Shown here: positions 7,643 through 50,908 of the stretch, piece after piece
How the letters are laid out: each line of letters opens with the position of its first letter
Numbering within the stretch: position 1 is the stretch's first letter
Source of the DNA: a virus
Length of the DNA stretch: 64,000 bases
Reading direction: 5' to 3' (one strand)
IMG/VR virus record: IMGVR_UViG_3300037091_000121
Location: 3,203 to 67,202 of that record
Translations under genes and position numbers: made by a program
The notes under the pieces: generated by a model
Seen by the model: only the letters and a program-made list of their open reading frames with translations
Database searches by the model: none
Told to the model about the DNA's origin: nothing

Positions 7643-8617
7643 CTACACTAACTTTACGTTACGCTTACTCCAATGCCTATCGCCCTTGGTGCTTGTGTCG
7701 TTGGGTAAATCGAGAAGCAGATGGCCCCACGTCTTCCCCGTAAGTATCTTCTGGATAGTTCCTCGGTCGGAACCATAAGCATCCGCGATCTGTTGGGCAC
7801 TCTCGGTTCCGATGTTGTATCGGTCCACTATCTGCCTAACCTTTGCTTCGGTTAGCATGTGCCTAACCTGACCGATCTTGCGATGCTCTCGCTTCTCGTA
7901 GGCAGACTGCCATTGGCATTTATCAGAGCAGAAACGCCTCTTCGCGTCCCTTATCTCCATTATACTTCCACAACGCTCACACGGCCTCTGATCCGTCGGC
8001 TTGGAGGCAAACCAATGATTGTAGCACTGGTCAACGCTTCGATAGCAAATACGGTTACAGTCATCTTCTCGACAGATACGGGCAGGCTTCGAAACCTTCT
8101 CCGTCTTACCTTCAACTTCTACGAACTCCCTACCAATGCAATCACCGCGCTTGTTAAGAAGCCTGATCTCGTCGTAAAGCACCTTCACGATAGGCTGATC
8201 GGCAAGAGCCCAACCTCGCTTAACTCTTCCATCGGCGTGATTACCTCGAAGCGAAAGGAACGTAACCACGATCTCTGCCTGACGCTTCTTGGTTACCAGA
8301 TACGGCAAAACTTGCGGTAGAACGTGCCTTATCTGATTACCACCCAGTTTCCACTTATAAAGGGCCTTACGACCCTCTCTGCTCTCCGCTCCTTCGTCAA
8401 TACGTCCATTACCCGTTAGTCGAACCAATTCCTCAAGTTGACCAACCCTGGTATTAGACGCATCTATTACGGCAACCACAGCTTCTCTGACATTCAATCC
8501 AAAAGGCTTTCGAAGGTGCAACGCTATGCTACCCTCGGCCTCCAGATACATCGCAACAGCCCGAGCCTCACCCACATCCATAACCTTGTCAGATACAACG
8601 TTTTCCTTGTATGCCAC
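7643..8617 (-). CDS. Free-standing LAGLIDADG-like homing endonuclease with C-terminal Cys-rich and HTH domains
   Basis: AVAMYLEAEGSI (degenerate LAGLIDADG) and LPQVLPYLVTKKRQAEI, plus CxxC clusters and an HTH tail; has its own sigma70-type promoter. Confidence 0.75.
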   Translation of the reverse strand: MAYKENVVSDKVMDVGEARAVAMYLEAEGSIALHLRKPFGLNVREAVVAVIDASNTRVGQLEELVRLTGNGRIDEGAESREGRKALYKWKLGGNQIRHVLPQVLPYLVTKKRQAEIVVTFLSLRGNHADGRVKRGWALADQPIVKVLYDEIRLLNKRGDCIGREFVEVEGKTEKVSKPARICREDDCNRICYRSVDQCYNHWFASKPTDQRPCERCGSIMEIRDAKRRFCSDKCQWQSAYEKREHRKIGQVRHMLTEAKVRQIVDRYNIGTESAQQIADAYGSDRGTIQKILTGKTWGHLLLDLPNDTSTKGDRHWSKRNVKLV

Positions 8618-8696: not shown

Positions 8697-10069
8697 TCAC
8701 AACGAGCCCGCGACCCCAGTTGGGTGGGTAATCCCATGGCTTTCCCTGTAGCTACCCGTCAAAACCAAGTTGCCGGTCGCAAGGCCATCGGTTTCCCGCT
8801 GAAGAGAGATAGGCCGACGATTGAACCAGAGAACAGCAGTCTCTTTCTTATCGGCCATAAGGAACCAGCGACCATCGTTGGTCATATGGGTCATTACGAT
8901 AACCTGAAGATCGAGAGCGCGAATGGTGTTGGGGTCGTTGTCAGCAGTGAAGGGCCTCTGAATCGAGTTCACGATCCGCTGGGCATTGAACCGATCGTCG
9001 GTGCCCACCACGAGCCTGACAGGCTGAATGGCGAGCTTCCGGCCTCTCTGGTCAACCATACCCGAAGACCACTGGTTGAGGAGCGCCTCAAGGCTCTCAA
9101 TGGACAGGTCGGCACCGCTCGAAAGCTGGTTCGACCACGTTCCACCGTCAGCCCGGAAGTGGACCTGGGAGAGCAGGGGATAACCCGTCCCGTTAGCCGT
9201 ATACTGGACAGCCGTGCCGGCGTTGTTGAAGAGGTCCATAGCGTTGACCTCCTGCGTGTAAGCAGCCGCACGAGCAAGCTCTCGACCGAACTCCGGGAAC
9301 ACTCCGTAAAGTTCGTCCTCCATCGCCTCCATAGTGATACGGCACTGGAGAGCATACGTATTGTGGACATACGTGCGCTTCCACGCTTCAGCACCACTAT
9401 CCTGGGCCGCAGGCGCGCCCTGGGCCTTCAGGAAAAACTGGCCAAGACCAGCCATTACCGTCTCGTTCTCCTGGCCCTTAACGGACCCGTCGATACGGTA
9501 AATCTGCTGGAACTGCTTGACAGCCTCGAGCCCAAACCTTCGATCCCCTCGGCTCTTTATCCGAGGGCTACGAGTTTCCTCGCAGATGGGACTATCTCTT
9601 CACCTCATAGAGGTGCGGGGCACTCGTGGAGCTTTCGGCGTTTCTCGTCTACTTGCTCTAGTCTCTGAACCTTCCGAGAATTCCTTCTCGGCTTGGCTGC
9701 GGATTACCATGCCTTTCGGTTTAGGCTTCCCGCAATTCACCCCGTCTTCACTACCGCATCGCTACGGCAGGGAGCAGCTTTAATCCTACTCGTTAAAATA
9801 AACGTGCTCGCCCTTTACAAGGGTTTGGACTATCTCATCACCCGCTATGGGGTGCCGGACGCTCTAGCCTGTATTCAGGTAGTCTCTGAACCTTCCGCAA
9901 TTTATGCGGCTTGGCTGCGGATTGGGATTTCTCCGTTCCCGCAATTCATCCGGTTATCACTCCGGCCTCACGACCGAAGGGCGCCACTTTCAGGGCTACG
10001 CAGCCCTCTTTCGAGCTGATCCGCAACGTTTGCGGTTGTCATCACGCCTGAGGGAATAATCCCAGGCAT
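8697..10069 (-). CDS. Major capsid protein (gpT-like, HK97 fold), three exons: 10069-9998, 9806-9788, 9532-8697; 308 aa after splicing
   Basis: The spliced frame is open (927 nt): MPGIIPSGVMTTANVADQLERGLR|HVYFNEW|LEAVKQFQQIYRIDGS...MAGLGQF...YALQCRITMEAMEDELY. GAGG RBS before 10069. Confidence 0.85.
9533..9787 (-). ncRNA. Group I intron 2 in the capsid gene (255 nt, ORF-less)
   Basis: Core elements GAAUUGCGGGAA, AAUCCGCAGC, GUUCAGAGACUA, GAGAUAGUCC. 5' exon ends in U and intron ends in G. IGS AGCU-GCUC pairs with exon ends GAGU and GGCU. Confidence 0.88.
9807..9997 (-). ncRNA. Group I intron 1 in the capsid gene (191 nt, ORF-less)
   Basis: Same P/Q/R/S core. IGS GUG-GCGC pairs with 5' exon GCGU and 3' exon CAC; terminal G at 9807. 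Confidence 0.88.
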
Positions 10070-17985: not shown

Positions 17986-18014
17986 AGTATACCAAGGTCA
18001 GGGTTGGTTGTCAA
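17986..18014 (-). promoter_or_regulatory. Sigma70-type promoter (phage-repeated TTGACAaccaaccc motif)
   Basis: TTGACA-N17-TATACT. Confidence 0.8.
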
Positions 18015-18577
18015 CCCCCTACCTCTCGTCCGGAGGGATATAGTCCAAGGTGCTCTTCTTGTGAACTAGATCCTTGCTCTGATCGTGGAACTGATCCTTG
18101 GTCTTGGGCCGCAGAGGTGCGTAGAACTTGTTAAGCTCATCAGAGGGCTTAAAGTCCCGGCCGGAGGTATTCTCCCCGCCGTCGATGCCTCGAACCTGCG
18201 CCGCCATCTTGATAACCTCCGGTGGCAACAACTTGGCTGCCTCACCCGGCGGAAGGCTATTCACACGGCTCGTTTTGTTAAGCGCCACGAGACACCGCCT
18301 TCCTAGTAACTTACGCGATCCTTGCCTTTGCCACCGGCAGGCTGGTCAGCCGCCTCGAATGGATGCCAAGCACCCTTCGCCCCGATAACGGCAGGGTCCC
18401 ACTCTCCAGGAATCTCAAACTCTGGCAAACACTGGCGGTCCTCAGTGAAGTTCCCGCCAGGGTTGGGTTCATATTCCGACAGGTCGATGGTAGACTTAGT
18501 GGCAGTCTTCCTACCCTCTGGCGAAATCGGGTACGGATCAACCCGCACAATCGGGGAGTTAGCCATGGTCATTCTCC

Positions 18578-34190: not shown

Positions 34191-34295
34191 CTCCTTTGTG
34201 GTCAAACATCAGTGATGGCCTAGTCTACCGGCATGGGCCTTGGTTGTCAATCCCTCATTTTGCACCCAGTGTATAGGTATGATATGATATATGTC

Positions 34296-34661
34296 ATGGA
34301 TAAACCAACCAACGGATACCAAACAGCGATGCTCATCCGCAGGCCAGATACAGGGAGAGATCCTTGCAGCTTGTATCTGACAGTTCAGCAGACGGCAGCA
34401 ATGCGTGGCTGTCTACCCGTCAGTGTAAGAAACGCCATTGTGTCTGGTCGATTGCCTTCTTGGAGCCTTGGTGGTATATACTTAATCAACCGTGCGGACG
34501 CCGAGGATTGGGCACTTCGAAAGCCTGCCATCAGTGGCGGCGGACGAGAGGTGAAACACTCCGAGCGAAGAATTGCCAAGCTGCAACGCGCTGCTGCTTC
34601 TCGGGCCTTGAAAGATGGCCGAACCAGTGAACGCGCTCACCGGACTAAAGAAGACGCATGA
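34296..34661 (+). CDS. Excisionase-like HTH DNA-binding protein (start uncertain)
   Basis: YLTVQQTAAMRG....VRNAIVSGRLPSW.LGGIYLINR. Confidence 0.7.
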   Translation: MDKPTNGYQTAMLIRRPDTGRDPCSLYLTVQQTAAMRGCLPVSVRNAIVSGRLPSWSLGGIYLINRADAEDWALRKPAISGGGREVKHSERRIAKLQRAAASRALKDGRTSERAHRTKEDA

Positions 34662-34900
34662 GCTACCAGAGACCCCATAATGAGCCTGCCCGCCCCCAGA
34701 GCATCCGCAACAGCATCACATATGAACCTGACCGCCAAAACATGCCGGTTCAAAAGTGCTGTAGGGTCCCTCGGTGGGTGTCAGAGGCAATCCTCCAATT
34801 CGCAGAGATCCACAATCAAAGTGAATCGGCCGTGATGAGAACAGCGTTAATGGACTTTGCTTCAGGGTTGCTTGAAAACAAGGACAGGGTTGAGCCGTGA
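34658..34900 (+). CDS. Ribbon-helix-helix-like regulator
   Basis: CRVPRWVSEAILQFAE...SESAVMRTALMDF. Confidence 0.55.
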   Translation: MSYQRPHNEPARPQSIRNSITYEPDRQNMPVQKCCRVPRWVSEAILQFAEIHNQSESAVMRTALMDFASGLLENKDRVEP

Positions 34901-34985
34901 TTGCTCAACCCTGTCCTTCCATACCCTGCCCGACCGGGCCACACCAGACCTAGCCATTCCCCGCCCCGCCCAGCCATTCCGTACC
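34880..34985 (-). ncRNA. Family-1 pentamer guide-like RNA A (13 GGH-NN units + 16-bp hairpin)
   Basis: GGTac GGAat GGCtg GGCgg GGCgg GGAat GGCta GGTct GGTgt GGCcc GGTcg GGCag GGTat. Own promoter 35023-34995; hairpin 34918-34880. Confidence 0.85.
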
Positions 34986-35019
34986 CAACACTATAGTATA
35001 CCTAGATGAGGGTTGGTTG

Positions 35020-35667
35020 TCAATCCCTCAAAATCTCACAACTGCAAACCTGAAACCGTCCATAGCTAGGGCGAAAATCACCCACTCCGACCAGCTTTCC
35101 CGCTTGTGTAAGCACATCCCGAAGCACTTGCGGTTCGATATACTCTGGCGTCAACACAAGGAAGATGACTTTCGCCCTCCAACCTTTCTCAACCGCCGGC
35201 CGCTGCCGTGTGATGCCGTTACGCTGAACCACAACTCGGCGCTGATCGAGATAGCTCCAATCCGAGAGGGTTTTACCCGCCAGAGTGATAGGAGCCAGTT
35301 CGGTTTCCACAATCAGACCTGCTTTGAAGAGATCCATTGCGCTCTTTCTTGGTGAGCGAGGGTCTTGCCGAAACTTGGCTGCCCAAACGCAAGCCATTCG
35401 CAAATACTCTCCCGGCAATGCAATCTCGCCTTTCTCCGTTCGGTATACGTAGCTGTTCACGTTGTCCGACTTCTTGGCATCGCTCCCCTTGGCTGCTTTT
35501 GACTTCTCCTCTACTGCCTCACAGTTCCACCGATGGAATAGAATGGGTGTCGTGCCCTCAACCTCCACCTCGCAGCGATAGGGAAACGCCAAAAGATCCT
35601 CTGCGCCGTTGGAAACCTCCTCCAGCGCTGGCATAACATTACGACCATTCAATTTTGTAGCTACCAT
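35020..35667 (-). CDS. RAMP/Cas7-fold-like RNA-binding protein 1 (Vipr-like), 215 aa
   Basis: VEGTTPILFH, IALPGEYLR and the Gly-rich C-terminal loop VGVGDFRPSYGRF parallel RAMP motifs. Start placed at ATG 35667 (AAAGGA RBS); the ORF-track extension is the repeat array. Confidence 0.75.
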   Translation of the reverse strand: MVATKLNGRNVMPALEEVSNGAEDLLAFPYRCEVEVEGTTPILFHRWNCEAVEEKSKAAKGSDAKKSDNVNSYVYRTEKGEIALPGEYLRMACVWAAKFRQDPRSPRKSAMDLFKAGLIVETELAPITLAGKTLSDWSYLDQRRVVVQRNGITRQRPAVEKGWRAKVIFLVLTPEYIEPQVLRDVLTQAGKLVGVGDFRPSYGRFQVCSCEILRD

Positions 35668-35691
35668 AATAGTTTTCCTTTCAAAAAACCC

Positions 35692-35826
35692 TAACCTTAC
35701 CAAACCCCACCGGACCGGGCCGAACCCTACCACTGCATGCCACGCCGCACCCTTCCGGACCATGCCGATCCTTGCCTCTCCGGGCCGCGCCTCGGCTCAC
35801 CGCACCGCTCCTCGCCACGCCACACC
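35692..35826 (-). ncRNA. Family-1 pentamer array B (27 GGH-NN units) in the leader of RAMP-like gene 1
   Basis: 25 of 27 pentamers begin GG; strict 5-nt phase. Confidence 0.85.
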
Positions 35827-35834
35827 TCTAGTGT

Positions 35835-35850
35835 TGCAAGAACAGTGCCA
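35835..35850 (-). promoter_or_regulatory. Sigma54-type (-24/-12) promoter for array B and RAMP-like gene 1
   Basis: TGGCAC-TGTTC-TTGCA, canonical spacing, 8 nt upstream of the first repeat. Confidence 0.65.
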
Positions 35851-35869
35851 ATCGACCATCTCCAGAACG

Positions 35870-35967
35870 AAAAAATAGGCCCATGGTTACACCATGGGCC
35901 TGACGGTAAAGAAGGAGTGTGTTGTGTTAAGCAAGTGGAGTATACCAGATCGAGGGTTGGTTGTCAA
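35870..35967 (-). ncRNA. Promoter-terminator-bounded ~60-nt sRNA with anti-SD core
   Basis: TTGACA-N17-TATACT (35967-35939), then CACTCCTTCTT, then hairpin AGGCCCATGG/CCATGGGCCT + U6. Confidence 0.55.
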
Positions 35968-36021
35968 CCCCTAAAAATAGGGCTTGCTTCGGCGATCTCA
36001 TCCCGGTATACTATGGTGTGA

Positions 36022-36131
36022 GGCAGGGCGTGGCGGGGACAGGCGGGGTGAGGCGCGGCCTGGTGCGACGAGGCGAGGAATGGCAAGGCATGGGTATCTC
36101 ACCCCAAGGAGAAACCCTTGGGGTGAGATAC
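36022..36131 (+). ncRNA. Family-1 pentamer guide-like RNA C (14 units + 16-bp hairpin)
   Basis: GGCag GGCgt GGCgg GGAca GGCgg GGTga GGCgc GGCct GGTgc GACga GGCga GGAat GGCaa GGCat; promoter TTGCTT-N17-TATACT at 35984-36012. Confidence 0.85.
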
Positions 36132-36154
36132 AATTATTAGGAAGGGGTCATAAA

Positions 36155-36694
36155 ATGGCTATAGATCAAAGGCATGTTGTAAACATAAACGGTAAACTTT
36201 ATCTCAAATACTCCGGTGTCCTTGAAGCGGCGACAGAGGCAGGATTGAAATCTTTGGAAGTTGAGATCATCCAGTTGCCTTGTGCAGATAATGGAAATAC
36301 AGCAGTTTGCAAAGCCATTGCTATTCTAGAGAAAGACGGGGTAGTAAGACGGTTCATAGAGATTGGAGATGCTTCTCCTCTCAACGCTTCTAAAATGGTT
36401 ATCAATGCCACAATCCGCCTTGCATCCACAAGAGCGAAAGGACGGGCGCTCCGAGATGCGGTTTGTCATGGCGAGGCTTTGAGCGATGAAATCCCAGAGT
36501 TAGAGCCAGCTCCACAGAACCGAGAGTGGACGCCGGCCAAAGAGGCAAGCCCTCTCGTTCGCGATCAGTTTTGCCAATGGGAGGGATGCGGGGTGGAACT
36601 CCCGCCGGCGGTAGTCACGTTCTCCAAAAGGAAGTATAACCTGAGTCTCTGCCGCGACCACCAGCTGGCAACGGATGCCAAGAAAGCACAATGA
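36155..36694 (+). CDS. Rad52/22-like single-strand annealing protein with C-terminal Zn-ribbon
   Basis: INGKLYLKY.G.L...GDASP.N....A.IRLASTRAKGRALRDA; start reassigned to ATG 36155. Confidence 0.65.
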   Translation: MAIDQRHVVNINGKLYLKYSGVLEAATEAGLKSLEVEIIQLPCADNGNTAVCKAIAILEKDGVVRRFIEIGDASPLNASKMVINATIRLASTRAKGRALRDAVCHGEALSDEIPELEPAPQNREWTPAKEASPLVRDQFCQWEGCGVELPPAVVTFSKRKYNLSLCRDHQLATDAKKAQ

Positions 36695-37224
36695 TGAACT
36701 GGCAAGAGAGATGTGATGCGAGGAAGCGAATAGAGACCACCTTGAGCGACGCGCTGCATTCTACTTACGCAAGAGATGCCGCCCCGCTGTGGCGAGAAAC
36801 GGCACGTCTTGCGATGGCAATGGCTGCCGAGTGCGAGGATCAGTTTCAGCAGAAGGTTGTCCTCACCATCCCTGGGGATGTGGCCAGAGACCTCTCTCCT
36901 AACCTGCGGCTGCACTGGAGAGAAAGAGCCAATAGAACCCATAGGTGGAGAGCGATGGCTCGACTAATATGGCAGTCTGAAGGAAGCGTCCGTTTTAAGC
37001 CGGGGGTTTCAATTCATATCACTGTAAGACGTGGAAGGCTGGTGGATCGAGATAATTGCATCTCGTCCTGCAAGGTCATATTAGACTCGCTGTGGGGTGA
37101 TGACGGGATGCTAGGTGCGGATGATGCAAGGTGGGTGAAGTCTATCGAGGTAATTCAGGAGACAGGTGGGAAATGGACAAAGCATCCGGAAGTCAAAGTC
37201 GAAGTGGCAGGGGAAGTCGAATAG
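36691..37224 (+). CDS. RusA-like Holliday junction resolvase
   Basis: LSPN...HW..R, DRDN....K..LDSL, DDARWV motifs. Confidence 0.65.
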   Translation: MMNWQERCDARKRIETTLSDALHSTYARDAAPLWRETARLAMAMAAECEDQFQQKVVLTIPGDVARDLSPNLRLHWRERANRTHRWRAMARLIWQSEGSVRFKPGVSIHITVRRGRLVDRDNCISSCKVILDSLWGDDGMLGADDARWVKSIEVIQETGGKWTKHPEVKVEVAGEVE

Positions 37225-37568
37225 CCCATCTGAGCAACGAGGATCTGATCGTTAAAGATGAGCCGGTTCGAATTCCTAGCCGGAAAGGTTACTCAAAGAC
37301 CAACCCTGGGCCAGTGTTCGTTTGGTTCTGCCGGAATAAGCACACGTCTAATATGCTTATCGAGGCATTGAAGCAAACTGCATATGGCGAGTGGAAATCA
37401 ACTCCCAGGCAGGCTAGATCTCACGGGAAATTCAGTGGATGCGCCTGGGTATTAAAGTCCTGGGGGCTGACAGAAGCTGAGTATAACGCCATGCAAAGGG
37501 TCGCTGTTAAGTTAGACCCTACTGCGTCGAATATGGTTTGGGATGAGGCGGGTCAGTGCTATGTTTAG
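37131..37568 (+). CDS. Hypothetical protein (true start probably near 37221)
   Basis: ORF track; contains KQTAYGEWKST, matched by guide D. Confidence 0.55.
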   Translation: MGEVYRGNSGDRWEMDKASGSQSRSGRGSRIAHLSNEDLIVKDEPVRIPSRKGYSKTNPGPVFVWFCRNKHTSNMLIEALKQTAYGEWKSTPRQARSHGKFSGCAWVLKSWGLTEAEYNAMQRVAVKLDPTASNMVWDEAGQCYV

Positions 37569-37605
37569 GGGATTGACAACCAAGGCTCATTCCGGTATAA
37601 TATGG

Positions 37606-37709
37606 TGCAAGTCCAGGCACGGCCAGGCTAGGCGGGGCGAGGATGGGCAAGGCATGGCACGGCAAGGTGAGGAGCAGCAGCTTGGATACCTAATATCCAG
37701 GCTGCTGCT
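37606..37709 (+). ncRNA. Family-1 pentamer guide-like RNA D (13 units + hairpin)
   Basis: TGCaa GTCca GGCac GGCca GGCta GGCgg GGCga GGAtg GGCaa GGCat GGCac GGCaa GGTga; promoter TTGACA-N17-TATAAT at 37573-37601; terminator hairpin + TTTT. Confidence 0.85.
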
Positions 37710-38325: not shown

Positions 38326-39141
38326 ATGAAGAGCAGCTTTTTGGCGTGGGCACCATTCCTATCGTCGTCTATTATGTCAGGGATTTGGTACTTCATCGGG
38401 TGGAAAGATGGGCGTAGTTTTGAGAGAAAGAAGTTTAACAAAAAGTTCGCTCCTTGGAGAGATGTGCCCCCTGATTCCAAACGCATAGATATGACAGATA
38501 AGGTGGGGGGCTATTGTGTTAAATGGTGGAAGCCTTCCAATCGCGGCTTCACAATTTTGGAATTACTCGTAGTAGTGGCAATCATAGCGATACTTATGGC
38601 CCTTCTTTTCCCGGCTTTCGCAGCAGCAAGGAGGCGAGTGCTGCAAACGTCGTGTGCTTCCAATCTTCGTCAGCTTGGTATGGCCATCTCGATGTATGCC
38701 CAGGACCACGACGGCTATCCGCCTATTGGTGGATACAATTACATTCCTCCAGCCCCTGCCCCGCAAGTATGGAACAGGTCGGACTGGGAAGACGGCCTGG
38801 TTGCGCTTGCTTACGTCAATAATTATAATCTATTTCGATGTCCTTCTGCCTCCAACAAGGATTACCGTTCAGCTTATGGAGTGAACCGATGGATTTTAGG
38901 ATGGGGGATCTCACAGTTATTAGACGCACCACCGTTCCCTAGCAATACTCTTTTGGCTACTGAAAAACAAGGTTCCGATTGGCCGGTTTGGTTACCTACC
39001 GAGCAGACAGGGAATCCTTACTACTTCCCCTTGGACCCCCGTCATAACAATCAACTCAACATTCTTTTCGTGGATGGACACGTAGGAAAGTCCATCATAG
39101 GGGAATTGATCGAGAGCAGCAACATCATTTGGAGATGGTGA
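38326..39141 (+). CDS. Prepilin-type N-terminal cleavage/methylation protein, DUF1559/H-X9-DG family (start uncertain)
   Basis: RGFTILELLVVVAIIAILMALLFPAF..AR....SCASNLRQLG.A..MYAQD, C-terminal RHNNQLNILFVDGHV. Confidence 0.9.
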   Translation: MKSSFLAWAPFLSSSIMSGIWYFIGWKDGRSFERKKFNKKFAPWRDVPPDSKRIDMTDKVGGYCVKWWKPSNRGFTILELLVVVAIIAILMALLFPAFAAARRRVLQTSCASNLRQLGMAISMYAQDHDGYPPIGGYNYIPPAPAPQVWNRSDWEDGLVALAYVNNYNLFRCPSASNKDYRSAYGVNRWILGWGISQLLDAPPFPSNTLLATEKQGSDWPVWLPTEQTGNPYYFPLDPRHNNQLNILFVDGHVGKSIIGELIESSNIIWRW

Positions 39142-39678: not shown

Positions 39679-40143
39679 CTACGTGAATGTCACATCACAA
39701 ACGAAGTTGAGGCTACCTCCGACGAAAATCACAATTGTCGGGGAGGTCCCTAGCGGTAACAATAATGGGCACCCGGCCGGATTGGTTCCGGGAGGTGAAA
39801 CGGCCGGAGGGATCGGAGGTTGGTGCGGAGTTATGAGAATACCGACATCGCCTGCAGAACCCTTGAGGGTCAATTCTGGCGGTATATTTGGAAGTGGAGG
39901 GATCGGTGGGACGGTAGGGTTAGGGATGGTTGGAGGTAGCTCAAGTAGCATTGCAATGGAGCCAGTCGGAATTTGGATGACGTTATTTCCTGGAACCAAT
40001 GTGAGAGATTGATGTGAGCCGGTGAGTCCTGCCCCTGGAGTAAATCGGACAGGCAGAAGCGTTCTGTCTATTACGACCCCACCGGAGTCGATTACGGTAA
40101 CGGCAACCTTCACTTCACACAATGCACTCATTAGCTTACCCAA
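39679..40143 (-). CDS. Pro-rich hypothetical protein
   Basis: ORF track. Confidence 0.5.
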   Translation of the reverse strand: MGKLMSALCEVKVAVTVIDSGGVVIDRTLLPVRFTPGAGLTGSHQSLTLVPGNNVIQIPTGSIAMLLELPPTIPNPTVPPIPPLPNIPPELTLKGSAGDVGILITPHQPPIPPAVSPPGTNPAGCPLLLPLGTSPTIVIFVGGSLNFVCDVTFT

Positions 40144-40649
40144 GACCTTCCTTTGACGACATTTCGGATCTGTATGTTGCTAACCCCATATTCACGCCCC
40201 AGGCCCCTATACGTGACGCCTCCTGCCGAGAAGCGCTCTCGGATCTCTAAAACCTTCTTCTCATTGAGCTTTGCCGAAGGGTGCGCCTCACCTCGGCGTC
40301 TACGCTCGGGTGGGCAGTGTCCTTGAACCCACATCTCCGGGTGCCGTTGCCATATATTTCGACCCTTGGATGCGCAGTCCTTGGCGTTGTCCGATCCTGT
40401 CCCGAGGAATAGATGGGCAGGGTTACAGCAAGGCGGATTGTCGCAGCGATGCAAGACCATAAGCCTGTCGGGAATGTCACCGAACTCCAGAACCCATGCT
40501 ACCCGATGAGCGCGCCACTGTTTTCCCATAAACCTGAATCGCCCGTAGCCTTGAGGCACGCAGGCCCTCGTCCAATTCCAGCACACATCATTATCCCCAT
40601 CGGGAATGTCCACCCCGGACCAAAAATAATCAGCAGTGTTCAGTCTCAT
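40131..40649 (-). CDS. HNH homing endonuclease
   Basis: CWNWT...GYG.F...AHRVAW...VLHRCDNPPCCNPAHLFLGT..DN + HTH tail. Confidence 0.9.
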   Translation of the reverse strand: MRLNTADYFWSGVDIPDGDNDVCWNWTRACVPQGYGRFRFMGKQWRAHRVAWVLEFGDIPDRLMVLHRCDNPPCCNPAHLFLGTGSDNAKDCASKGRNIWQRHPEMWVQGHCPPERRRRGEAHPSAKLNEKKVLEIRERFSAGGVTYRGLGREYGVSNIQIRNVVKGRSWVS

Positions 40650-49015: not shown

Positions 49016-49079
49016 CTTGCGCCTCCTCCAAAACTAGAGGGGTTGACAATCAACCCCCACCCCGGTATACTCCATTGTT

Positions 49080-50302: not shown

Positions 50303-50908
50303 ATGGCTGTAAAGAAGAACGACTCGGTAGCTATCCCCGAGTTCAAAACAACAAAGATGCTGGTTCCCATCGTTGGAGTTTCCCCTCTCTTGTGTAATCG
50401 AATTACACAAGAAGTGCTCGAAACTCTTTCTGGCGGAAAGAAAGAGGGCGAAAAGAAGTCAAAGGACAACCGGGGATGGAAGGAGATCGCAATGGATGGG
50501 GCGTATCGTCATCCCAAAACGGGGGCCTACGTATTCCCCTCTTCTGGGCTTATGAACGCTCTGGCATCGGCATCATACCGGATGGGTCTGACCAAGAGCG
50601 CGGTCGAAGTGTTCGCTAATGTCCAGATTGAAGATGAGTGGCTGGACATCCTTGGGCCAGCGCCTCGGGCTCGTCAGGACAGCGGCCGCAACCAGGGCAA
50701 GGGATTGGTCGCTGTGAACCGAGCGGAGTTCCCTTTGGGCTGGCATATCAATGTTCCTGTTCAATTCACTTCCGAGATGAGCGCCAAGAAGCTAGGGATG
50801 CTATTTGAAGCCGCCGGTTTCGGAGTTGGGATTGGATGCTGGAGGCCGGAGAAGAAAGGCCGCTGTGGACGGTTCGTTATTCAGCGCAGTGCTGGAAGCG
50901 ACCTGTGA
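50303..50908 (+). CDS. RAMP/Cas7-fold-like RNA-binding protein 2 (Vipr-like)
   Basis: IVGVSPLLCN, VFPSSGLMNAL, Gly-rich loop GFGVGIGCWRPEKKGRCGRF; TAAGGAG RBS. Confidence 0.75.
   Translation: MAVKKNDSVAIPEFKTTKMLVPIVGVSPLLCNRITQEVLETLSGGKKEGEKKSKDNRGWKEIAMDGAYRHPKTGAYVFPSSGLMNALASASYRMGLTKSAVEVFANVQIEDEWLDILGPAPRARQDSGRNQGKGLVAVNRAEFPLGWHINVPVQFTSEMSAKKLGMLFEAAGFGVGIGCWRPEKKGRCGRFVIQRSAGSDL

What the first reader, a model, noticed from the sequence alone, without database searches (positions are those of the whole stretch)
34880..37709. Candidate RNA-guided system 1: RAMP/Cas7-like protein with four promoter-driven GGH-NN pentamer RNAs
Seen: four strictly 5-nt-phased tracts (A 34921-34985 -, B 35692-35826 -, C 36022-36091 +, D 37606-37670 +). 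The triplet is nearly always GG[CTA] and the dinucleotide varies. Each starts a few nt after its own promoter, and A, C and D end in a ~16-bp hairpin. They surround a 215-aa protein with RAMP-like motifs and a Gly-rich C-terminal loop. Established: Cas7-group RAMPs polymerise along guide RNA with fixed periodicity. Inference: one subunit binds each pentamer and displays the NN for target recognition, a CRISPR-independent programmable system. From memory, a phage RAMP + GGY/NN repeat system was recently reported as VIPR; novelty should be checked against that.
Basis: partly seen in the sequence, partly recalled or inferred. Interest (0 to 1): 0.95.

Follow-up and report, generated by a model that had tools for sequence, protein, structure and literature searches.

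The report
Phage VIPR locus with four guides
This is a genuine example of the VIPR RNA-guided DNA-silencing systems first described in 2026, carried by an environmental phage, and three of its guide RNAs spell out versions of the phage's own neighbouring genes as they occur in related phages.

Summary
The 64-kb window contains exactly four 5-nt-phased GGN-NN tracts, of 12 to 28 units. All four flank a 215-aa gene at 35020-35667 on the minus strand.

That protein is a Vipr:
- A profile of it hits PDB chain 36pp_D, "SUSP1 Vipr protein", at E=5e-11.
- Its model matches Cas7/Csm3 folds.
- The five SUSP1 residues that hold the GG are conserved.
- In 175 of 183 related loci, pentamer tracts lie within 3 kb of the gene.

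This is VIPR, already in print (bioRxiv 10.64898/2026.04.26.720920, .720927 and 2026.10.15.759431), and the locus is a new member of a known kind. The scan has noted VIPR before on other DNA (511 notes).

Local particulars:
- A, C and D are single promoter-driven units ending in 16-bp hairpins of unrelated sequence.
- B is a 28-unit leader abutting the vipr ribosome-binding site, with no promoter or hairpin of its own.
- C and D lie on the strand opposite vipr, which is rare (10 of 512 tracts).
- No conserved accessory (vap) gene was found.

Read by the published one-base-skip rule, guide C spells VGHGEALADEI. That is the allele of the adjacent Rad52-like gene in relatives; the resident gene has VCHGEALSDEI. 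Guides D and A behave likewise but more weakly. No RNA data or DNA-level full-length targets were obtained.

The parts
35020..35667 (-). vipr gene (215 aa): stand-alone Cas7-like RAMP, with G-loop GVGDFRPSYGRF near the C-terminus
   Evidence: No Pfam family. phrog_4652 at E=5e-16. PDB 36pp_D 'SUSP1 Vipr protein' at E=2.6e-4 with the single sequence and 5.1e-11 with profile A1. AF2 model pLDDT 83. Foldseek top hits are all Cas7/Csm3/type VII Cas7, with 77 hits at E<=1e-3.
34880..35023 (-). vrRNA A unit: promoter 35023-34995, 16-unit tract 34985-34906, 16-bp hairpin tail 34918-34880. Lies just downstream of vipr on the same strand.
35687..35826 (-). Tract B: 28-unit leader array ending about 10 nt before the vipr ribosome-binding site. 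Has no hairpin and no promoter of its own.
   Evidence: Same-strand leader tracts end less than 150 nt before vipr in 121 of 183 related loci. The closest relatives L265/L272 have a 48-unit leader in the same place.
35877..35967 (-). Consensus promoter (35967-35939) followed by an intrinsic terminator (35901-35877), upstream of tract B. Either a roughly 60-nt RNA without pentamers or an attenuated leader of the B-vipr unit.
35984..36131 (+). vrRNA C unit: weak -35/-10 (35984-36012), 15-unit tract 36022-36096, 16-bp hairpin 36094-36131. Lies directly upstream of the Rad52-like gene, on the strand opposite vipr.
37573..37709 (+). vrRNA D unit: 12-of-12 consensus promoter 37573-37601, 12-unit tract 37616-37675, 16-bp hairpin 37673-37709. 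On the strand opposite vipr.
36155..36694 (+). 179-aa Rad52-like single-strand annealing protein with a C-terminal Cys-rich motif. This is the gene family that guide C decodes to; the resident site is 36461-36493, in frame, with 18 of 22 informative bases matched.
   Evidence: AF2 pLDDT 80. Foldseek top 10 hits are all human RAD52, E about 1e-4. Homologue alignment; site scoring.
37131..37568 (+). 131-145-aa gene of unknown function. This is the gene family that guide D decodes to; the resident site is 37377-37403, in frame, with 14 of 18 bases matched.
   Evidence: variant allele
34233..34661 (+). 142-aa HTH/excisionase-like gene. Guide A units 4-11 decode to its conserved GGIYL-I/V-PR segment; the resident site is 34470-34492.
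   Evidence: Pfam HTH_17 at E=1.8e-4, below the family cut-off. phrog_66 at E=3e-4..
36691..37224 (+). 177-aa RusA-like resolvase candidate lying between the two guide-cognate genes (context only)
   Evidence: phrog_34 at E=2.2e-3

Best explanation
The locus is a VIPR (Viral Interference Programmable Repeat) system of an environmental phage.

By homology with the solved SUSP1 system, Vipr protomers polymerise one per GGY-NN pentamer along each vrRNA. They bury the GGY and present the NN pairs. The filament then binds double-stranded DNA whose sequence reads NN-x-NN-x... (one base skipped) and blocks transcription.

A, C and D are made as roughly 105-120-nt RNAs, each from its own phage promoter and capped by a 3' hairpin. 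B is transcribed as the leader of the vipr message and would need processing.

Read with the one-base-skip rule, C, D and A address codon positions 1-2 of conserved segments of three early genes: a Rad52-like annealing protein, an unknown 145-aa protein and an HTH/Xis-like protein. They match these genes in the form found in related phages. The resident copies, which sit next to the guides, differ at 1-2 guide-read codons (A, C) and at 2 of the first 9 (D).

The most likely role is silencing those genes in co-infecting or resident relatives while sparing self.

What is shown:
- homology, fold, residue conservation, tract-gene co-occurrence;
- promoter and hairpin anatomy;
- the decoded matches.

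What is inferred:
- transcription, binding and silencing;
- that the mismatches protect the resident genes.

The stated confidence of 0.8 is for membership of VIPR and the shared mechanism. I put the rival-allele targeting part at about 0.55.
For: (1) Homology to a characterised Vipr. PDB 36pp_D matches at E=5.1e-11 over profile positions 33-203.

(2) Residue conservation. The SUSP1 residues that read G1 and G2 and stack on Y3 are H17, R138, D177, W178 and R179 (paper .720927 section 5). They align to H45, R156, D197, F198 and R199 here (alignments). H45, R156, D197 and R199 are invariant and F198 nearly invariant among 34 relatives.

(3) RAMP fold. The top Foldseek hits are all Cas7/Csm3/type VII Cas7 chains.

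(4) Co-occurrence.
- 76 of 80 IMG/VR loci carry at least one tract of 7 or more units: 224 tracts, against 5 in shuffled loci.
- 175 of 183 loci with flanks of at least 600 nt carry a tract within 3 kb.
- Phage DSL-LC04 has three tracts directly upstream of its homologue.

(5) The unit counts of A, C and D (12-16) and their RNA lengths fit the published 9-16 units and roughly 100 nt.

(6) No self-target above a shuffled-guide null. The paper reports the same for its systems.

(7) Guide C.
- Units 2-12 decode to V-G-H/Q-G-D/E-A-L-A-D/E-D/E-I/M.
- Homologue P0124 (65% identical) has VGHGEALADEI, 11 of 11 codons.
- P0125 and P0126 match 10 consecutive codons.
- The resident gene has VCHGEALSDEI.
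- The best run for any of the other six guide/orientation combinations over the 242 proteins then held was 5.

(8) Guide D.
- Units 1-9 decode to T-H/Q-Y-G-D/E-C/W-K/N-I/M-T.
- Homologue P0122 has TQYGEWKST; the resident gene has TAYGEWKST.
- A divergent contig in run X7 shows the DNA changes that turn the resident Ala codon into CAG. By my reading this gives 16 of 18 bases for units 1-9, against 14 of 18 for the resident site.
- The same contig joins 37547 to 37798, skipping the D cassette.

(9) Guide A. Units 4-11 decode to GGIYLVPR. P0246 and P0247 have GGIYLIPR; the resident gene has GGIYLINR, the only one of 7 aligned sequences without Pro.

(10) All three resident sites are in frame with the skipped base at the wobble position, as the papers describe for natural targets.
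Against: - No RNA evidence: no RNA run holds the locus.
- No DNA-level target with at least 80% of all NN positions was found.
  - The best allele for C reaches 22-23 of 28-30 (0.73-0.82, depending on the Leu codon and on whether the hairpin unit is counted).
  - For D the best is 16 of 22-24.
  - For A only 8 of 13-16 units line up.
- The unmatched units are mostly the 3'-most ones. In SUSP1 the R-loop grows from the 3' end.
- The resident sites alone are at chance level genome-wide.
- The resident allele of the C site differs from P0124 at 2 of 11 codons. That is fewer than their overall 35% divergence predicts, so the differences do not themselves show selection for escape.
- 11 of 67 units have A at position 3, which the SUSP1 pocket would exclude.
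- The tails are simple hairpins of unrelated sequence, not the conserved pseudoknot tail of type II.
- None of the ten neighbouring genes is found beside vipr in 241 related loci, so there is no recognisable vap.
- B has no promoter, tail or identified target.
Confidence: 0.8

Rival explanations
1. Self-regulation. The guides act on the phage's own neighbouring genes despite the mismatches. For example, they might shut off the early recombination and regulator genes once Vipr has accumulated. The better match to relatives would then only reflect drift of the resident genes.
For: - Each cognate gene lies within about 400 nt of its guide.
- The resident C site matches 18 of 22 bases over units 2-12 and is the single best 9-unit match in the window, at 15 of 18.
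- Tolerance to mismatches is not stated in the text I read.
Against: - Whole-guide self scores are 19 of 30 (C), 14 of 24 (D) and 13 of 32 (A). These are at or below the shuffled-guide null.
- Relatives' alleles match better at every one of the three sites.
- The papers report abolished silencing when NN pairing is perturbed, and no self-targets at 80% or more.
Confidence: 0.12
2. The true targets are unrelated competitors such as satellites, prophages or host genes. The resemblance of C, D and A to neighbouring gene families would then be incidental, or a trace of how guides arise.
For: - Published natural targets are mostly satellites and resident prophages.
- B and the outer units of A, C and D have no assigned match.
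- Only a small, relative-biased sequence space could be searched.
Against: - An 11-codon in-frame run for C, against a background maximum of 5, is very unlikely by chance.
- The same pattern recurs for D and A, each with its own neighbouring gene.
Confidence: 0.06
3. The tracts are not guide RNAs at all but, for example, G-rich structural or regulatory DNA.
For: No transcription data are available.
Against: - The tracts are tightly and strand-specifically linked to vipr homologues: 502 of 512 tracts lie on the gene's strand.
- GG is fixed and NN variable.
- Promoters and hairpin caps are present.
- The protein is homologous to one solved in complex with exactly such RNA.
Confidence: 0.02

Closest known systems
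Type II VIPR of Escherichia phage SUSP1 and the Pseudomonas fulva prophage (bioRxiv 10.64898/2026.04.26.720920, Results, Discussion and methods sections 18 and 20 read plus term passages; .720927, sections 5-6 and passages read)
   Same: - Stand-alone roughly 20-kDa Cas7-like Vipr with conserved GG-reading residues.
- Roughly 100-nt RNAs made of GGY-NN pentamers placed up- and downstream of vipr.
- Phage-borne, with no CRISPR-like long-period array.
- Guides decode in frame with the skipped base at the wobble position.
- No self-targets.
   Different: - Only distant in sequence: found at E=5e-11 with a profile and 2.6e-4 with the single sequence.
- No vap1-like operon partner.
- Tails are 16-bp hairpins of unrelated sequence instead of a conserved pseudoknot tail.
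- A 28-unit leader array.
- Two guides on the opposite strand under their own promoters.
- 16% of units have A at the Y position.
Other VIPR types with 'staggered' or long arrays (same paper, section 9 and the fig. S18 legend; figures and supplements not seen)
   Same: A long uninterrupted pentamer array next to vipr (tract B; 48 units in L265/L272, up to 71 units in L068).
   Different: The type cannot be assigned because type definitions are in figures and data files I could not see. No hammerhead or other Rfam ribozyme was found in the window or in 18 related loci.
Solo vrRNAs that target relatives' vipr genes or vrRNAs while scoring lower on self (bioRxiv 10.64898/2026.10.15.759431, sections 8, 9 and 17 read)
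   Same: Guides aimed at close relatives, wobble-aligned, with a lower self-match that avoids autoimmunity.
   Different: Here the phage keeps its vipr. The addressed genes are ordinary early genes, not vipr or vrRNAs, and each guide sits beside the resident, mismatched copy of its cognate gene.
Cas7/Csm3 backbone subunits of type III and type VII CRISPR effectors
   Same: Same fold (RRM core, G-loop, thumb); periodic binding along a guide RNA (paper .720927 section 5).
   Different: A single RRM. 5-nt rather than 6-nt periodicity. No cas partner genes were recognised among the 12 neighbouring ORFs scanned. The target is dsDNA read discontinuously.

Membership tests
VIPR system | Protein homologous to an experimentally characterised Vipr | tested here: met
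   Profile A1 against PDB hits 36pp_D 'SUSP1 Vipr protein' at E=5.1e-11, covering chain residues 5-188. The single sequence gives E=2.6e-4.
VIPR system | RAMP fold: RRM core, glycine-rich loop, thumb | tested here: met
   AF2 model pLDDT 83, pTM 0.75. 77 PDB chains match at E<=1e-3, and every listed hit is a Cas7/Csm3-family chain. The G-loop GVGDFRPSYGRF is present. The thumb was not inspected residue by residue.
VIPR system | Residues that bind G1, G2 and Y3 of the repeat (SUSP1 H17, R138, D177, W178, R179) | tested here: met
   They align to H45, R156, D197, F198 and R199. Four are invariant and F198 is conserved in at least 90% of 34 relatives. W is replaced by F, which keeps the aromatic ring.
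VIPR system | Adjacent RNAs of tandem GGY-NN pentamers with variable NN, 9-16 units | tested here: met
   A has 16 units, C 15 and D 12. B has 28, outside that range. GG is present in 67 of 71 units, and position 3 is C or T in 54 of 67.
VIPR system | Structured 3' tail capping each vrRNA | tested here: inconclusive
   A, C and D have 16-bp hairpins, but these share no sequence and no pseudoknot was tested. B has none.
VIPR system | Accessory vap gene in the locus | tested here: not met
   None of 10 neighbouring ORFs recurs beside vipr in 241 loci (tblastn E<=1e-4). No neighbour cluster of real genes exceeds 37 of 152 loci. The paper says loci 'typically' have a vap and names six vap genes for seven types, so a vap may not be obligatory.
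VIPR system | vrRNAs expressed and bound by Vipr | not testable with these tools
   No RNA run is listed for this DNA.
VIPR system | Targets obey the one-base-skip (NNx) rule | tested here: inconclusive
   Decoded guides give an 11-codon match (C), 7+1 codons (D) and 7 of 8 codons (A) to relatives' alleles, in frame. No DNA-level match over the full guide was obtained.
Type II VIPR (SUSP1 clade) | vap1 partner and conserved pseudoknot tail | tested here: not met
   No operon partner: vipr is followed by vrRNA A and a convergent gene. The tails are unrelated hairpins.
CRISPR-Cas class 1 | CRISPR array plus cas operon | tested here: not met
   No long-period repeat array in the window. The 12 neighbouring ORFs scanned hit no cas family in Pfam or PHROGs.

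The most novel reading that the evidence does not exclude
Each promoter-driven vrRNA and the mismatched resident allele beside it form a selfish 'guide plus immune allele' cassette. During co-infection, Vipr loaded with the guide silences the sensitive allele of an early gene in related phages. Genomes, or recombinants, that carry the cassette would then out-replicate those that lack it. This would be an RNA-guided form of marker exclusion or allele drive among phages.

The variant contig in run X7 would be such a victim. It has the better-matching allele and no D cassette.
Probability: 0.3. Interest if true: 0.6.

Novelty: new member of a known kind. Interest (0 to 1): 0.35.

Why it matters
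VIPR itself is already published, so the locus does not reveal a new principle.

Its value is as a clean natural example outside the Enterobacteria/Pseudomonas systems studied so far, probably from a phage of Planctomycetota. It shows:
- how guides can be deployed as independent promoter-hairpin cassettes;
- that vipr can work without a recognisable vap;
- that guides can be aimed at ordinary early genes of sister phages (a Rad52-like annealing protein and an Xis/HTH-like protein), with each guide beside a mismatched resident copy.

That last point gives a directly testable pair of target sites, resident versus relative allele. These could be used to measure mismatch tolerance and self/non-self discrimination in VIPR.

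Tried and rejected
1. Self-targeting. Full-guide and local-run scans of the 67-kb contig gave nothing above shuffled-guide nulls. No 8-unit sub-guide of B reaches 14 of 16 anywhere in the window.

2. Targets in held loci. The guides were scanned against 81 and then 241 vipr-anchored loci, and the best scores equalled the null. Guide A's six 5' units match the conserved PEYIPPQ codons of vipr in L008, L010 and L310, but the score (12) is at the null mean (11.7). I do not count this as a target.

3. Targets in IMG/VR. Seven exact pattern scans were run: six of half-guides and one of C units 2-12.
- Four scans found nothing.
- The other three found 59, 42 and 2 stretches. When rescored with the whole guide these reached at most 20 of 24 (D), 23 of 30 (C) and 21 of 32 (A), meaning the forced 16 bases plus chance.
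- These scans need a perfect half-guide, so they are insensitive.

4. My count at that site is 7 of 9 units (14 of 18 bases), then 0 of 3.

5. Expression. No RNA holder is listed. The contigs laid are DNA.

6. Rfam. There is nothing at gathering score in the locus, and the three sub-threshold hits are noise. No ribozyme was found in 18 related loci.

7. Type assignment. It is not possible from the text.

8. Host. This is only inferred. The evidence is a DUF1559/N-methyl gene and 30 of 80 genome contigs relatives whose titles name Phycisphaerae, Planctomycetota, Pirellulales or Frigoriglobus. Placing Frigoriglobus in that phylum is from my own knowledge.

9. A vap search by clustering neighbour ORFs.
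- The largest cluster (48 loci) consists of antisense ORFs over the pentamer tracts, so it is spurious.
- The next clusters are phage replication genes: a 155-aa protein, an AAA ATPase and a helicase. These three labels are my own reading of the example sequences, not tool assignments.
- They occur in 30-37 of 152 loci.

Full report
**What is there.** The window is 64 kb of a single 67,202-bp virus contig.

A register-aware scan finds only four 5-nt-phased GG tracts on either strand, all between 34.9 and 37.7 kb:
- A, 34906-34985 (-)
- B, 35687-35826 (-)
- C, 36022-36096 (+)
- D, 37616-37675 (+)

Shuffled windows give 0.72 short tracts on average. Of the 71 units, 67 begin with GG. The third base of those is C 33, T 21, A 11, G 2, and all 16 dinucleotides occur at the last two positions.

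**Promoters, hairpins and the gene.**
- A and D follow 11-12-of-12 sigma-70 sites.
- C follows an 8-of-12 site that shares the GGTATAMTATRGTG context of A and D.
- These promoters belong to a phage-specific family, GTTGACAACCAA...GGTATAMT, found six times in the window where none is expected.
- A, C and D end in perfect 16-bp hairpins of unrelated sequence (z -4.8 to -5.5).
- B has no such promoter and no structure (z +0.84). It runs to within about 10 nt of the ribosome-binding site of the 215-aa gene 35020-35667 (-).
- The nearest promoter upstream of B (35967-35939) is followed by an intrinsic terminator (35901-35877).

**The protein is a Vipr.**
- Pfam has no model for it. PHROGs has an unannotated family, phrog_4652, at E=5e-16.
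- phmmer against PDB sequences finds one chain, 36pp_D 'SUSP1 Vipr protein' (E=2.6e-4).
- A profile of 34 relatives raises this to E=5.1e-11 over nearly the whole chain.
- The AF2 model (pLDDT 83) matches 77 PDB chains at E<=1e-3. All listed hits are Cas7/Csm3-type subunits of type III and VII effectors. That fold library predates the VIPR structures.
- In the SUSP1 structure G1 is read by H17 and D177, G2 by R138 and W178, and Y3 partly by R179 (paper .720927 section 5).
- In the printed alignments these residues fall on H45, D197, R156, F198 and R199, which are invariant or nearly so in the family.

**Tracts go with the gene.**
- The family is large: 6,998 proteins at E<=1e-3 among 7,327 candidates.
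- Of 80 IMG/VR loci, 76 have at least one tract of 7 or more units. That is 224 tracts, 223 on the gene's strand, against 5 tracts after shuffling.
- The loci from IMG/VR, genome contigs and metagenome contigs were pooled, and 183 of them have flanks of at least 600 nt. Among these:
  - 175 have a tract within 3 kb;
  - 121 have a leader tract ending less than 150 nt before the gene;
  - 122 have one starting less than 150 nt after it;
  - 502 tracts are on the gene's strand and 10 are opposite.
- A (downstream) and B (leader) are therefore the family's standard layout. C and D, on the other strand, are unusual.
- The closest relatives are L265 and L272 (84% amino-acid identity). They share only the vipr gene at the DNA level (76%) yet have the same layout, with a 48-unit leader and hairpin-capped single units.

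**Comparison with print.** The system was published in 2026 as VIPR.
- It has vrRNAs of 9-16 GGY-NN units plus a 3' tail. Targets are read as NN-x-NN. The complex represses transcription on either strand without a PAM.
- Seven types and six vap genes are described. Natural targets are in satellites, prophages and other VIPR systems.
- Structures show one protomer per repeat and an R-loop triplex.
- A later preprint shows competition with satellites, and solo guides aimed at relatives' vipr with lower self-match.
- The present locus meets the defining features that can be tested.
- It differs from the type II exemplars in its tails, the lack of a vap, the long leader and the divergent guide cassettes.
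- Its type cannot be assigned from the text I could read.

**What the guides address.**
- Whole-guide scans of the phage's own genome are at null level, as the paper reports for its systems.
- Exact half-guide scans of IMG/VR found only chance matches.
I tested this on homologues.

Guide C:
- Units 2-12 decode to V-G-H/Q-G-D/E-A-L-A-D/E-D/E-I/M.
- The adjacent 179-aa gene has VCHGEALSDEI at 36461-36493, in frame (18 of 22 bases). This is the best 9-unit match in the window (15 of 18).
- Its closest homologue outside this genome, P0124, has VGHGEALADEI. P0125 and P0126 have 10 consecutive compatible codons.
- Over the 242 proteins then held, no other guide/orientation combination exceeded 5, apart from D-sense on P0122 (7).
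- The 179-aa protein models as a Rad52-like annealing protein and is followed by a RusA-like gene.

Guide D:
- Units 1-9 decode to T-H/Q-Y-G-D/E-C/W-K/N-I/M-T.
- The resident 145-aa gene has TAYGEWKST (14 of 18). Its only other homologue found, P0122, has TQYGEWKST.
- A roughly 80%-identical contig in run X7 carries the changes that make the second codon CAG, which I read as 16 of 18.
- That contig joins 37547 to 37798, so it lacks the D cassette. The joint has only 30 letters on its short side, so it is weak evidence.

Guide A:
- Units 4-11 decode to GGIYLVPR.
- Homologues of the HTH/Xis-like gene have GGIYLIPR. The resident gene alone has Asn in place of Pro.

All three resident sites put the skipped base at the wobble position.

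**Limits.**
- The matches cover the middle of the guides, not their 3' ends.
- None reaches the published 0.8 identity over every unit, except C on a favourable count.
- The homologue evidence is at protein level apart from the X7 variant.
- B has no candidate target.

**Verdict.** This is a real, well-formed VIPR locus and a new member of a known kind. The plausible role is inter-phage competition directed at sister phages' early genes. The scan has noted VIPR many times on other DNA (511 notes in at least 381 genomes). Two of those follow-ups describe guides that spell the neighbouring gene's allele in relatives lacking the cassette. I did not check those notes.

Noticed in passing
window 50303-50908 (+): A second, divergent Vipr-like gene (201 aa) with G-loop GIGCWRP. 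hhalign against the Vipr profile gives probability 68%, E=4.9e-5, over 164 columns. The phage therefore seems to carry two VIPR-type systems.
   Followed up: partly
window 35877-35967 (-): An 11-of-12 consensus promoter followed about 35 nt later by a strong intrinsic terminator, giving a roughly 60-nt pyrimidine-rich RNA without pentamers just upstream of tract B. It is either a small RNA of unknown role or an attenuator of the B-vipr unit.
   Followed up: partly
window 9568-9797 and 9809-10011 (-): Two tandem group I introns (Rfam RF00028, 89 and 64 bits). The relative L265 also has one, at 7770-7980.
   Followed up: no
window 17986-18015, 34222-34251, 34995-35024, 35939-35968 (all -); 37572-37601, 49042-49071 (both +): A phage-specific promoter family, GTTGACAACCAA-N-GGTATAMT: six copies where none is expected by chance. 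Three of them lie in the VIPR locus.
   Followed up: partly
window 38326-39141 (+): A phage gene with a prepilin N-methylation motif and a DUF1559 domain (both above the Pfam cut-offs). From my own knowledge this type is typical of Planctomycetota, which gives a hint about the host.
   Followed up: partly
window 37235-37547, run X7: A co-occurring allele of the 145-aa gene, about 80% identical, in a DNA run labelled peat metagenome. Its contig skips 37548-37797, the vrRNA D cassette.
   Followed up: partly
L068 2412-2776, L019 3375-3714, L265 2978-3217: Relatives carry very long uninterrupted pentamer arrays (71, 57 and 41 GG units; the last spans 48 units), far beyond the 9-16 units of single vrRNAs. 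This implies processing into several guides.
   Followed up: no
window 40131-40649 (-): A free-standing HNH endonuclease gene (Pfam HNH_3, E=1.9e-13) 2.4 kb from the locus.
   Followed up: no
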